Source: a virus
Length of the DNA stretch: 64,000 bases
IMG/VR virus record: IMGVR_UViG_3300004369_000003
Coordinates: 1 to 64,000 of that record
Direction: 5' to 3' (one strand)
Under the pieces are notes generated by a model. That model searched no databases, was not told the origin of the DNA, and saw only the letters and a list, made by a program, of their open reading frames with translations. How positions within the stretch are numbered: the stretch's first letter is position 1; every line of letters begins with the position of its first letter. Positions 16,453 to 18,127 of this stretch are shown here, in pieces. The position numbers and the translations under genes are program-made.

Positions 16453-16734
16453 ATGAGTGGAGAAGAAAAGCCCGAAGAGGCAGGGGAAGAGAAGATGGCA
16501 GAGCCAACTTTTGATGCCGAGGCATTTGAAGCCGCTGTCGGCACTAGCCCGATGGATGAAGACGCCATGCAGATGCATGAGTTGTTTCTATCTTTGATGA
16601 GAGCTGGCTTCCTAGAGCACCAAGCCCTGAAGTTGGTCGCTTTTCTCATTGACCAAGCAAACCAAGACCAAATCGTTTTTCAGTCTATGATGGACTTAGA
16701 CGACGATGACGATGAAGACGAAGATGACTCCTGA
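16453..16734 (+). CDS. Hypothetical acidic protein
   Basis: MHELFLSLMRAGF..HQAL pattern of small actinophage proteins. Confidence 0.65.
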   Translation: MSGEEKPEEAGEEKMAEPTFDAEAFEAAVGTSPMDEDAMQMHELFLSLMRAGFLEHQALKLVAFLIDQANQDQIVFQSMMDLDDDDDEDEDDS

Positions 16735-17062
16735 AGAAAAAGAGGCAGTCACCGATGAGGTTTGGAAAATCCTCATTGAGACGGGTTGTCTAGTCTTCAA
16801 CGGGTATGACCATCAGGGAGAAGCCACCTACAAAGTAACCGAGAGGTGCCGAGAGTTTTTTCCTGAAATCTTTGAGATGCATCAATCAGATGTAAACTCA
16901 ACTGCCTTTGAACTGTGGCAACTTGGAGTTATTGACATCATGTTCACAGAAAGTTCGGAGAGCATCAGCGTTAGCCCAGCGAACTACGCAAGACTACGAG
17001 AAGTGTCTCACCTTCTTGATGACGACCAGTTGGCGTTTCTTAGAGCGCTACAGAAGGACTAA
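16724..17062 (+). CDS. Hypothetical protein
   Basis: ORF overlapping the end of the upstream gene. Confidence 0.6.
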   Translation: MTPEEKEAVTDEVWKILIETGCLVFNGYDHQGEATYKVTERCREFFPEIFEMHQSDVNSTAFELWQLGVIDIMFTESSESISVSPANYARLREVSHLLDDDQLAFLRALQKD

Positions 17063-18102
17063 ATCCTTCCACCAATCCACTCAATGACGTTCACTGTTAC
17101 AGCGTTGCCCATCTGCTTGTAGCGCGTTGAGTCAGCCTGACCGTCTGTCCAGTTGTCAGGAAAGCCCTGAAGTCTCTCGCACTCGACAGGGGTGAGTCTG
17201 CGAACTCTCGACTTATCCATTATTGCTGGTACGTTTCCGCCACCAGTTCCCCATCTAGAAATCACCGTCTGCATTGTCTGAGACTCAGTGACTCGGACAT
17301 CTCCCACACGGGTTCCGTCCATAATCAAGACCGTTGCTCGTCCTTCTCCGCTGTTGTCAAACGGAGTGAGAGTTGGAGAAACTGACTGGGTTCTCCACAC
17401 TTCAGCGGGAAGATTTCCTTCGCTGTCTCGTGCTCCAGAACGAACTGCCTTGATGTAGGTCGTCAGAGTGTTATCTGACTCGTTAGAGCCTGTTCCAATT
17501 CCTCGGGAAGTGGCTTCCCCCGCCCCGTCGCTCTGCGAATGATTCCCTCGCAGGCTTTCGAACTCAGCGAGTACTTTGCGTCCACCTCGTTCTGGAGTGT
17601 TTGCGACAATAAAGACTCGGCGGCGTCGCTGGGGGACTCCGAAGAATTGCGAATCAAGCACACGCCATTCGATGTCGCTATACCCTGCGTCGGCCAATGT
17701 AGTGAGGACGACTCCGAAATCGCGTCCTCCGTTGCTTGATAGAAGTCCTGCGACATTTTCCAGGATAACAGTTTTGGCTTCAACGTGCGATGCGAAAGAG
17801 ACAGCATCAAAGAAGAGTCCACTTCGTTCTCCAGCGAGCCCAACCCTGCGTCCCGCAACGCTGACATCTTGGCAAGGGAATCCTCCGCAGACAATATCGA
17901 CTCGCCCTTTGAGATTTTCGGCATCAGCCCACTCCTTTGCTGTTACTACATCCGTGTGCTTGGCAACTGTGGGCCAATGCTTTGTAAGTACCTCTAGGCA
18001 CTTCTTATCAATCTCAACTTGACCGACGCAGGTGTGACCAGCCCGTTCCAGCCCAAGGTCAAAGCCTCCGACCCCAGCGAAGAGAGATACAAAAGTTGCC
18101 AT
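17059..18102 (-). CDS. DNA (cytosine-5) methyltransferase
   Basis: SLFAGVGG (I), GGFPCQD (IV), LENV (VI), PQRRRRVF (VIII), RRLTPVECERLQGFP (IX), YKQMGNAV (X). Confidence 0.93.
   Translation of the reverse strand: MATFVSLFAGVGGFDLGLERAGHTCVGQVEIDKKCLEVLTKHWPTVAKHTDVVTAKEWADAENLKGRVDIVCGGFPCQDVSVAGRRVGLAGERSGLFFDAVSFASHVEAKTVILENVAGLLSSNGGRDFGVVLTTLADAGYSDIEWRVLDSQFFGVPQRRRRVFIVANTPERGGRKVLAEFESLRGNHSQSDGAGEATSRGIGTGSNESDNTLTTYIKAVRSGARDSEGNLPAEVWRTQSVSPTLTPFDNSGEGRATVLIMDGTRVGDVRVTESQTMQTVISRWGTGGGNVPAIMDKSRVRRLTPVECERLQGFPDNWTDGQADSTRYKQMGNAVTVNVIEWIGGRI
17463..17924 (-). CDS. Nested alternate-frame protein inside the C5 methyltransferase
   Basis: AAAGGAG 7 nt before the ATG; C-terminus LSQTLQNEVDAKYSLSSKACEGIIRRA..RGKPLP resembles the post-motif-VIII segment of C5 MTases. 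Confidence 0.7.
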   Translation of the reverse strand: MPKISKGESILSAEDSLAKMSALRDAGLGSLENEVDSSLMLSLSHRTLKPKLLSWKMSQDFYQATEDAISESSSLHWPTQGIATSNGVCLIRNSSESPSDAAESLLSQTLQNEVDAKYSLSSKACEGIIRRATGRGKPLPEELEQALTSQITL

Positions 18103-18127
18103 GAGAAAAAGCTTACCCTACCAACCC

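What the first reader, a model, noticed from the sequence alone, without database searches (positions are those of the whole stretch)
17463..17938. Dual-coding DNA methyltransferase with a nested out-of-frame partner
Seen: a 153-aa same-strand ORF lies wholly inside the C5 MTase and has AAAGGAG 7 nt before its ATG. It stays open across motifs IV-VIII. Its end (LSQTLQNEVDAKYSLSSKACEGIIRRA) resembles the L.DIL..EVD.KY.LS segment that normally follows motif VIII in frame, while the main frame has low-complexity sequence there. Established precedent: M.EcoHK31I needs a beta polypeptide encoded in an alternative frame within alpha. Inference: a two-chain enzyme whose small-domain piece is overprinted on the catalytic motifs.
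Basis: partly seen in the sequence, partly recalled or inferred. Interest (0 to 1): 0.7.

Follow-up and report, generated by a model that had tools for sequence, protein, structure and literature searches.

The report
Hidden gene inside phage cytosine methyltransferase
A phage DNA cytosine methyltransferase gene carries a second, conserved protein-coding gene one base out of step, which most likely makes a small detachable piece of the same enzyme; the same hidden gene is present in many phage methyltransferases, including that of phage P1.

Summary
The 347-aa C5 methyltransferase (17059-18102, minus strand) holds a 153-aa ORF in its +1 frame (17463-17924), with AAAGGAG 7 nt before the ATG.

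This is not chance. In all 70 viral relatives that have both the catalytic core and the conserved C-terminal "tail", the tail lies in the +1 frame. Stops in the +1 frame are almost absent across the nested ORF (20 seen, about 335 expected) but are not depleted in the flanks. Over the last ~45 codons the +1 frame is far more conserved than the main frame (51% against 30% identity). Main-frame synonymous sites are frozen there. In a ~95% identical natural relative, both listed tail changes alter the main frame and are silent in the nested frame.

Modelling shows a disordered N-terminal ~100 aa and a confident helical tail. The tail is predicted to dock on motif IX of the methyltransferase (ipSAE 0.71, best control 0.00).

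Some relatives have the published M.EcoHK31I layout, with motif IX inside the nested ORF. Others are M.AquI-like splits. Here motif IX stays in the main chain, so this is a new variant of a known kind.

Translation, binding and requirement for activity are all untested. Earlier follow-ups of this scan reached the same reading on other DNA.

The parts
17059..18102 (-). Main ORF: a complete single-chain C5 DNA methyltransferase of 347 aa, carrying motifs I, IV, VI, VIII, IX and X.
   Evidence: ORF; PF00145, E 9e-68, profile positions 2-322 of 324; motifs invariant in the alignment of homologues.
17463..17924 (-). Nested ORF in the +1 frame, 153 aa plus stop: the candidate small (beta-like) subunit.
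   Evidence: Conserved in 70 of 70 relatives that have both core and tail. Depletion of +1 stops. 2673 cluster representatives match it among predicted proteins. Matches phrog_16143.
17932..17938 (-). Shine-Dalgarno-like AAAGGAG, 7 nt upstream of the nested ATG (17922-17924). It lies inside the main-frame codons for A-K-E-W.
   Evidence: Read directly. Most relatives have ATG, GTG or TTG with an SD-like motif 29-50 nt upstream of motif IV.
17736..17924 (-). Nested residues 1-63: the overprinted N-terminal part. It is kept open, but its sequence is no more conserved than a by-product frame, and it is predicted disordered.
   Evidence: core identity +1 0.31 against +2 0.31. (synonymous codon identity mostly near baseline, 0.30-0.51). 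(16 stops against 120 expected). (pLDDT below 55).
17466..17735 (-). Nested residues 64-153: the part under sequence constraint. Residues ~100-153 form the conserved tail (pattern SLS.VLE..V..KY.LS.KA..GI.RRA..RGK.LP..L..AL).
   Evidence: synonymous codon identity 0.48-0.58, rising to 0.74-0.87. (tail identity +1 0.51 against main 0.30). (pLDDT 91-98; helices 106-109, 122-135, 141-152). (predicted interface).
17464..17556 (-). Main-frame residues 183-213: a G/S-rich linker that overlaps the tail. It is predicted disordered and poorly conserved in the main frame.
   Evidence: pLDDT below 50 for residues 183-213; variable columns.
17617..17631 (-). Motif VIII (QRRRR). The conserved tail begins in the +1 frame 4-34 nt after its first base, so the same bases encode the motif VIII strand and the start of the tail.
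17161..17211 (-). Motif IX in the main frame (residues 298-314). It is the predicted docking site of the tail strand K-Y-S-L-S (nested residues 117-121).
   Evidence: invariant R301, R302, P305, E307. (closest pairs are main 300-304 with nested 118-120).

Best explanation
The methyltransferase gene is dual-coding. The main frame makes a C5 methyltransferase with all catalytic motifs. Ribosomes that start at the internal AAAGGAG-N7-ATG read the +1 frame and make a 153-aa protein. Its first ~60-100 residues are an overprinted, largely disordered leader. Its last ~50-90 residues are a conserved small helical module. That module most likely binds the methyltransferase's small (DNA-recognition) domain, with the K-Y-S-L-S strand pairing with the motif IX strand and the preceding segment lying against the residues just before motif VIII. 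It would thus supply in trans the segment that follows motif VIII in frame in ordinary enzymes such as Dcm.

The first tail codons share their bases with the motif VIII strand, so one chain cannot hold both. The enzyme would therefore be a heterodimer of the M.EcoHK31I kind, except that motif IX has stayed in (or returned to) the large chain.

Shown: the ORF, its conservation, and selection on its frame. Inferred: translation from the internal start, binding, and a contribution to activity.
For: (1) Conservation. The tail lies in frame +1 in 70 of 70 viral loci that have both core and tail. The nested ORF is also open in Rctr41k, Pseudanabaena phage Pan4 and low-GC Streptococcus phage Javan105, in Vibrio phage CP-T1 and mycobacteriophage Dove, and as a 162-aa ATG ORF in phage P1 dmt.

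(2) Depletion of +1 stops is confined to the nested ORF: 20 seen against about 335 expected, while the flanks show 392 against 323. The median P(open) per locus is about 0.001. ORFs in the +2 frame are short.

(3) Frame-specific selection. Identity over the tail among distant pairs is 0.51 in frame +1, 0.30 in the main frame and 0.27 in +2, and +1 exceeds the main frame in 96.5% of 2057 pairs. Main-frame synonymous codon identity rises from 0.3-0.4 to 0.74-0.87 under the tail and falls back to 0.34 just after the nested stop.

(4) Micro-evolution. In a ~95% identical relative from lagoon metagenomes, both listed changes in the tail are non-synonymous in the main frame (I202T, S191G) and silent in the nested frame. 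Ten of eleven listed changes downstream of the nested ORF are silent in the main frame.

(5) Start signal. AAAGGAG-N7-ATG is present here, and relatives have start codons with SD-like motifs at the equivalent place.

(6) Structure. The tail has pLDDT 91-98 and the leader below 55. The main chain alone has a confident large domain, but residues 183-213 are disordered and the small domain has low confidence.

(7) Complex model. ipSAE is 0.71 (median of three runs) against a best control of 0.00. That mark was reached by 58 of 80 solved complexes and 2 of 110 mismatched pairs. The runs share at least 88% of their contacts and the partner's pLDDT is at least 79. My own alignments were used, so the calibration counts hold only roughly. 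The interface is main residues 147-157, 180 and 297-311 with nested 95-150.

(8) Relatives L075, L076, L079, L027 and L070 carry motif IX inside the nested ORF while the main ORF lacks it. This is the published M.EcoHK31I layout, where both chains are required (PMC2836561, PMC3404938).

(9) hhalign places the tail on Dcm residues 270-338, which are motif VIII plus the following segment. This was the only hit.
Against: - There is no direct evidence of translation: no proteomics or ribosome profiling. The one RNA run holds only small pieces at 90-95% likeness.
- The main chain already has every canonical motif including IX, so it may be active alone.
- The similarity to Dcm is weak (E 0.003, probability 10%).
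- No solved structure or fold match was found for the tail.
- The complex score is a model's confidence. It may reflect memory of intrachain packing in solved single-chain methyltransferases.
- The nested N-terminal ~60 residues show no sequence constraint beyond staying open.
- The micro-evolution signal in the tail rests on two substitutions from a truncated table.
Confidence: 0.62

Rival explanations
1. The nested ORF is a real, selected protein, but it is not part of the enzyme. Its helical tail would act separately, for example as a regulator of methyltransferase expression or timing, a DNA-binding factor or an anti-restriction factor. It would be carried inside the gene only for compact co-expression.
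For: Selection on the frame does not say what the protein does. The tail is a small helix-loop-helix with a basic R-R-A..R-G-K stretch. The main chain has all motifs. No fold match assigns a function.
Against: In relatives the same ORF carries motif IX, a structural element of the methyltransferase itself. The docking prediction is specific: 0.71 against 0.00 in controls, with strand pairing to motif IX. The tail aligns to the canonical post-motif VIII segment of Dcm. The ORF is found only inside this methyltransferase family.
Confidence: 0.18
2. The nested ORF is a leftover in this lineage. It is essential in the split and EcoHK31I-like relatives, but became redundant here when the C-terminal half with motif IX was fused into the main frame, and it has simply not decayed yet.
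For: The window and L006 form a single-chain pair nested within a clade of split enzymes, with supports 100/97 and 100/99. The main chain has all motifs.
Against: Single-chain enzymes with an intact nested ORF occur on many separate branches; the tree needs at least 7 changes for the single-chain label. They include very distant ones such as Rctr41k, Pan4, Javan105 and P1. In the ~95% relative the tail changes are silent in the nested frame and non-synonymous in the main frame. The strong SD and ATG are retained.
Confidence: 0.1
3. The tail is reached by programmed +1 ribosomal frameshifting at or after the run of arginine codons in motif VIII, giving a fusion of the catalytic core to the tail rather than a separate protein.
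For: The tail begins 4-34 nt after the first base of QRRRR. Runs of Arg codons can stall ribosomes (general knowledge).
Against: A fusion would need no open +1 frame upstream, yet the ~100 upstream codons are cleared of stops (16 and 0 seen against 120 and 126 expected). They start at a conserved start codon with an SD. The first tail codons use the same bases as the motif VIII beta-strand (R-V-F-I-V), so a shifted chain would lose that strand. The product would also lack the TRD and motifs IX and X.
Confidence: 0.05
4. The +1 frame is not translated. Its openness and similarity would be side effects of main-frame conservation, codon usage or a nucleic-acid-level constraint.
For: Across motifs IV-VIII the +1 identity (0.31) equals that of the +2 control frame (0.31).
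Against: Shuffles that keep protein and codon usage do not reproduce the open frame. The tail is more conserved in +1 than in the main frame. The pattern holds from 30%-GC Streptococcus phages to high-GC actinophages. The tail folds with pLDDT above 90.
Confidence: 0.03

Closest known systems
M.EcoHK31I (E. coli HK31, YGGCCR), a heterodimeric alpha/beta C5 methyltransferase
   Same: A second polypeptide is encoded entirely inside the large-subunit gene in another reading frame. The N-terminal part of beta is dispensable: 42 residues can be removed in vitro (PMC2836561), which matches the unconstrained, disordered leader seen here. Relatives of the window gene (L075, L076, L079, L027, L070) have exactly the published layout: the large chain carries I-VIII, TRD and X, and the nested chain carries motif IX.
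   Different: In the window the nested ORF ends before any motif IX, and the main chain keeps motif IX (residues 298-314). The nested product could therefore only supply the post-motif VIII segment.
M.AquI (Agmenellum quadruplicatum, CYCGRG), a two-subunit C5 methyltransferase
   Same: It is a naturally split enzyme: alpha carries I-VIII plus part of the variable region, and beta carries the rest plus IX-X (PMC3404938). About half of the relatives are split in this way, for example L056 and mycobacteriophage Dove gp107/gp108. They also keep the nested ORF.
   Different: The window enzyme is not split at that point. The nested ORF is an additional chain that is not described for M.AquI.
E. coli Dcm / EcoRII-type single-chain C5 methyltransferases
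   Same: They share the catalytic motifs. The Dcm segment after motif VIII (L..LL.P.V.AKY.LTP...YL.RYAKK) is the only place where the nested-ORF profile aligns.
   Different: In Dcm that segment is in frame with the core. Here it is in frame +1 and overlaps motif VIII. The similarity is weak (E 0.003, probability 10%).
Overprinted (overlapping) genes of viruses in general
   Same: It is a same-strand +1 overlap. One partner is disordered where the other is strongly constrained, and synonymous sites are suppressed (PMC8227390 and bioRxiv 10.1101/229690 for the general pattern).
   Different: The better-conserved part of the nested protein is probably not de novo. It looks like an old piece of the host enzyme itself, displaced into another frame.

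Membership tests
C5 DNA methyltransferase (Pfam PF00145) | Motifs I (FxGxGG), IV (PCQ), VI (ENV), VIII (QxRxR), IX (RxLTxxE) and X (GNAV) in one frame | tested here: met
   (E 9e-68, near full-length match). (all motif residues invariant in the homologue alignment). (all motifs in frame 0 in the window).
M.EcoHK31I-type heterodimeric C5 methyltransferase | Small subunit encoded wholly inside the large-subunit gene in another reading frame | tested here: met
   17463-17924 lies within 17059-18102, in frame +1. Selection on that frame.
M.EcoHK31I-type heterodimeric C5 methyltransferase | Small subunit carries motif IX and the large subunit lacks it | tested here: not met
   The window's nested ORF has no motif IX, and the main ORF has it at residues 298-314. 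The feature is met in relatives L075, L076, L079, L027 and L070.
M.EcoHK31I-type heterodimeric C5 methyltransferase | Both polypeptides associate and are required for methylation | not testable with these tools
   Only a model is available: ipSAE 0.71 against a best control of 0.00. Activity needs an experiment.
M.EcoHK31I-type heterodimeric C5 methyltransferase | Sequence homology of the nested protein to M.EcoHK31I beta | not tested
PMC306636 is not held and no supplements are held.
M.AquI-type split C5 methyltransferase | Enzyme split within the variable region into alpha (I-VIII) and beta (IX-X) genes | tested here: not met
   The window's main ORF is continuous from motif I to X. The feature is met in 34 of 69 relatives.
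Functional overlapping (dual-coding) gene | ORF conserved beyond what the overlapped frame forces: stop depletion, suppressed synonymous change, frame-specific conservation, own start signal | tested here: met
Functional overlapping (dual-coding) gene | Protein product detected | not testable with these tools
   No proteomic or ribosome-profiling data are available. RNA contigs cover only 17052-17265 and 17714-17863 at 90-95% likeness.

The most novel reading that the evidence does not exclude
The nested +1 protein is an obligatory subunit of a very large family of phage and mobile-element C5 methyltransferases, whether single-chain, AquI-like split or EcoHK31I-like, and including phage P1 Dmt. 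The annotated 'complete' enzymes would then be inactive or mis-targeted without it. The family would have been locked into dual coding since an ancient frameshift displaced the post-motif VIII segment onto the bases that encode motif VIII.
Probability: 0.4. Interest if true: 0.82.

Novelty: new variant of a known kind. Interest (0 to 1): 0.7.

Why it matters
If the nested protein is a working subunit, several things follow.

- Thousands of phage cytosine methyltransferases, including the classical P1 dmt, are annotated one gene short. Attempts to express them from recoded synthetic genes would silently destroy the partner.
- It would be one of the most widespread and deeply conserved same-strand overlapping genes in bacterial viruses.
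- It would be a clear case where the overlap holds an old piece of the host enzyme rather than a de novo protein.
- M.EcoHK31I, known since 1995 as an oddity, would become the tip of a large family.
- It would offer natural heterodimeric scaffolds for split-methyltransferase engineering.
- It bears on how phages evade restriction, because these enzymes protect phage DNA.

Tried and rejected
- **Simple frameshift or sequencing error:** rejected. The main frame after motif VIII (VL.E.E...) is conserved in homologues, and the same frame relation holds in 70 of 70 loci.
- **Programmed +1 frameshift:** judged unlikely; it is kept as a 0.05 rival (see Rival explanations).
- **Pfam scan of the nested ORF:** no family found.
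- **PDB sequence search with the nested profile:** no match at E up to 10.
- **Foldseek of the nested model against the PDB:** nothing with E at or below 0.001.
- **Word-based search for longer proteins that hold the tail in frame:** none found, which is weak evidence.
- **ESM Atlas:** only unnamed viral 'hypothetical protein' clusters of about 100-120 aa.
- **Lee et al. 1995 (PMC306636):** not held. Supplements of PMC2836561 are not held either. Homology to the real M.EcoHK31I beta is therefore untested.
- **Dcm family profile:** the homologues returned were all at least 71% identical, so the profile-profile test gained little.
- **Metatranscriptome run X24:** it holds two short contigs at 90-95% likeness. 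This is not evidence of transcription of this phage.
- **Joints listed in run X4** (skips of 99-476 bases): they are at low likeness with short sides and probably come from other organisms. They were not used.

Full report
**1. What is there**

The window is part of a 102.5-kb viral record, estimated about 78% complete. DNA near-identical to this stretch occurs in aquatic metagenome runs, and a ~95% identical relative in lagoon metagenome runs.

On the minus strand, 17059-18102 encodes a 347-aa C5 DNA methyltransferase. It matches PF00145 at E 9e-68, and motifs I, IV, VI, VIII, IX and X are all in one frame.

Inside it, 17463-17924 is a 153-aa ORF in frame +1. On the coding strand, AAAGGAG is followed by 7 nt and then the ATG.

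**2. It is not a frameshift error**

The main frame after motif VIII (V-L-x-E-x-E...) is conserved in homologues that are 50-84% identical. The main reading is therefore genuine.

**3. The nested frame is conserved far beyond this phage**

- tblastn with the nested protein hits the +1 frame of annotated C5 methyltransferase genes in 238 phage records at E up to 1e-3. Hosts include Streptococcus, Vibrio, Mycobacterium, Escherichia and a Methanobacterium virus.
- I checked the frame by hand and found +1 each time in Rctr41k, Javan105, Pan4, phage P1 dmt, CP-T1 and mycobacteriophage Dove.
- In P1 the nested ORF is 162 aa, starts with ATG and is not annotated.
- A full HMMER scan of 1.84 billion cluster representatives finds 2673 predicted proteins at E up to 1e-3.
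- PHROG 16143, labelled 'DNA methyltransferase', is this nested family.
- Among 80 viral contigs fetched with the main protein, all 70 loci with both a recognisable core and a tail-HMM hit carry the tail in frame +1. It starts 4-34 nt after the first base of QRRxR.

**4. Tests against chance and against hitch-hiking**

I shuffled synonymous codons within each gene, which keeps the protein and its codon usage fixed.

- About 5 +1 stops are expected in the 153 codons, with a median P(open) of about 0.001. Of 69 loci, 53 are fully open, and the rest have stops only at the variable edges.
- ORFs in the +2 frame at the same place are mostly 9-80 codons long.

| Region | +1 stops seen | +1 stops expected |
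|---|---|---|
| Nested ORF, first third | 16 | 120 |
| Nested ORF, second third | 0 | 126 |
| Nested ORF, tail | 4 | 88 |
| N-terminal control | 217 | 161 |
| C-terminal control | 175 | 162 |

All figures in the table are summed over loci.

Amino-acid identity among 2057 distant pairs:

| Region | Main frame | +1 frame | +2 frame |
|---|---|---|---|
| Motifs IV-VIII | 0.575 | 0.31 | 0.31 |
| 40 codons after motif VIII | 0.30 | 0.51 | 0.27 |

In the tail region the +1 frame beats the main frame in 96.5% of pairs.

Main-frame synonymous codon identity changes along the gene:

- 0.3-0.4 at baseline;
- 0.48-0.58 over main residues 123-179;
- 0.74-0.87 over residues 180-207;
- 0.34 straight after the nested stop.

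So the last ~90 nested codons are under sequence constraint. The first ~60 are only kept open.

**5. Micro-evolution**

Contigs of a ~95% identical relative were laid on the region.

- Of the listed differences downstream of the nested ORF, 10 of 11 are silent third-position changes in the main frame.
- The two differences inside the tail are non-synonymous in the main frame (I202T, S191G) and silent in the nested frame (L143, R131).
- Two differences in the core are silent in the main frame and change the nested leader.
- In run X7, pieces covering 17347-17949 show 8 differences in about 600 bases. The flanks show 40 in 473 and 25 in 190.

The difference table was truncated, so this is supporting evidence only.

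**6. Anatomy of the nested protein**

AlphaFold2 with a 74-row alignment gives pLDDT 43-57 for residues 1-100 and 91-98 from residue 111 onward. Helices lie at 106-109, 122-135 and 141-152.

The main chain alone has a confident catalytic domain. Residues 183-213, the stretch overlapped by the tail, are disordered, and the small domain has low confidence.

**7. Partner test**

The methyltransferase (81-row alignment) was folded with nested residues 95-153.

- The ipSAE scores were 0.73, 0.71 and 0.70, against 0.00 in all three controls.
- That mark was reached by 58 of 80 solved complexes and 2 of 110 mismatched pairs.
- The runs share at least 88% of their contacts, and the partner's pLDDT is at least 79.
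- My own alignments were used, so the calibration holds only roughly.
- The tightest contacts pair nested 118-120 (Y-S-L) with main 300-304 (the motif IX strand). Nested 105-111 lies against P157 and the motif IX helix. E180 and residues 147-157 also touch.
- The pLDDT of the methyltransferase chain was 76-77 with the tail and 68 with unrelated partners.

The model may be recalling how single-chain methyltransferases pack this region. That would show likeness to the canonical arrangement, not binding.

**8. Is the tail the canonical post-motif VIII segment?**

The only hhalign hit of the nested profile on E. coli Dcm is residues 270-338, which are motif VIII and the following segment.

- Against the single Dcm sequence: E 0.02.
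- Against a 16-row Dcm profile: E 0.003, probability 10%.

The hit is in the right place but weak. I treat it as suggestive.

**9. Architectures in the family**

Among 69 loci:

| Layout | Loci |
|---|---|
| M.AquI-like split, with motifs IX-X in a separate downstream ORF (example L056) | 34 |
| Motif IX in the main ORF, like the window | about 16 |
| Motif IX inside the nested ORF and absent from the main ORF (L076) | 5 |
| Undetermined | 14 |

The third layout is the one published for M.EcoHK31I: alpha carries I-VIII, TRD and X, beta lies in another frame of alpha and carries IX, and both are needed (PMC2836561, PMC3404938).

A maximum-likelihood tree of the core shows the layouts interspersed, needing 18 changes in all. 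The window plus L006 form a single-chain pair inside a clade of split enzymes. The nested ORF survives all these rearrangements.

**10. Mechanism**

The first tail codons use the same bases as the motif VIII strand. One chain cannot hold both, which argues for a separate polypeptide and against a frameshift fusion. The stop-free leader that begins at a start codon with an SD points to internal initiation.

My best reading, at about 0.6, is a heterodimer in which the nested protein's tail completes or stabilises the small domain next to motif IX. Other readings remain open:

- a separate function for a real protein;
- a redundant leftover in this lineage;
- a frameshift fusion;
- a non-translated by-product.

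**11. Novelty**

The principle is known from M.EcoHK31I. What differs here is that the main chain keeps motif IX, so the nested protein supplies only the post-motif VIII module.

I found no paper describing this nested ORF as a family-wide feature, or in P1 dmt. The library is incomplete, so this is not proof of absence.

Earlier follow-up reports of this scan reached the same reading on other genomes. I saw them only after my own tests, and they agree with my results.

Noticed in passing
L085:2219-2707 (phage P1, NC_005856.1, inside dmt at 66412-68676): P1 dmt holds an unannotated 162-aa ATG ORF in frame +1 that ends in the same conserved tail. P1 would be a convenient system for testing the nested gene.
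   Followed up: partly
L076:1652-2257 and main ORF L076:1489-2688; also L075, L079, L027, L070: Relatives with the published M.EcoHK31I layout: the nested ORF carries the tail plus motif IX (RRLTPTECERL), and the main ORF has motif X but no motif IX.
   Followed up: partly
L056:1492-2593; L087:1128-2246 (mycobacteriophage Dove gp107/gp108); proteins P0094-P0120: About half of the relatives are split into an alpha gene of ~246-273 aa (motifs I-VIII) and a short beta gene (motifs IX-X), like M.AquI. They still keep the nested ORF, so the enzyme could have three chains.
   Followed up: partly
Proteins P0190, P0210, P0226, P0237, P0246, P0270, P0127, P0232, P0165: Predicted proteins in which motif I, motif IV or motif IX lie in the same frame as the nested sequence, with the switch point differing between them. 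They may be natural frameshift variants, pseudogenes or another layout.
   Followed up: no
Protein P0007 (298 aa): A close relative of the window enzyme lacks everything between motif IV and the post-motif VIII segment. This may be an internal deletion or an assembly artefact.
   Followed up: no
window 16900-17062 (3' end of the 118-aa gene at 16706-17062, plus strand): In the ~95% relative this neighbouring gene carries about 24 differences in 160 bases. This is far more than the methyltransferase next to it, so it is a fast-evolving small gene of unknown function.
   Followed up: no
window 18103-18125 compared with 17925-17938: The nested ORF has a much better Shine-Dalgarno sequence (AAAGGAG, 7-nt spacing) than the main methyltransferase ORF, which has no clear one upstream.
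   Followed up: no
phrog_16143: This PHROG family, labelled 'DNA methyltransferase' with a 139-position profile, is really the nested +1-frame protein and not a methyltransferase domain.
   Followed up: partly
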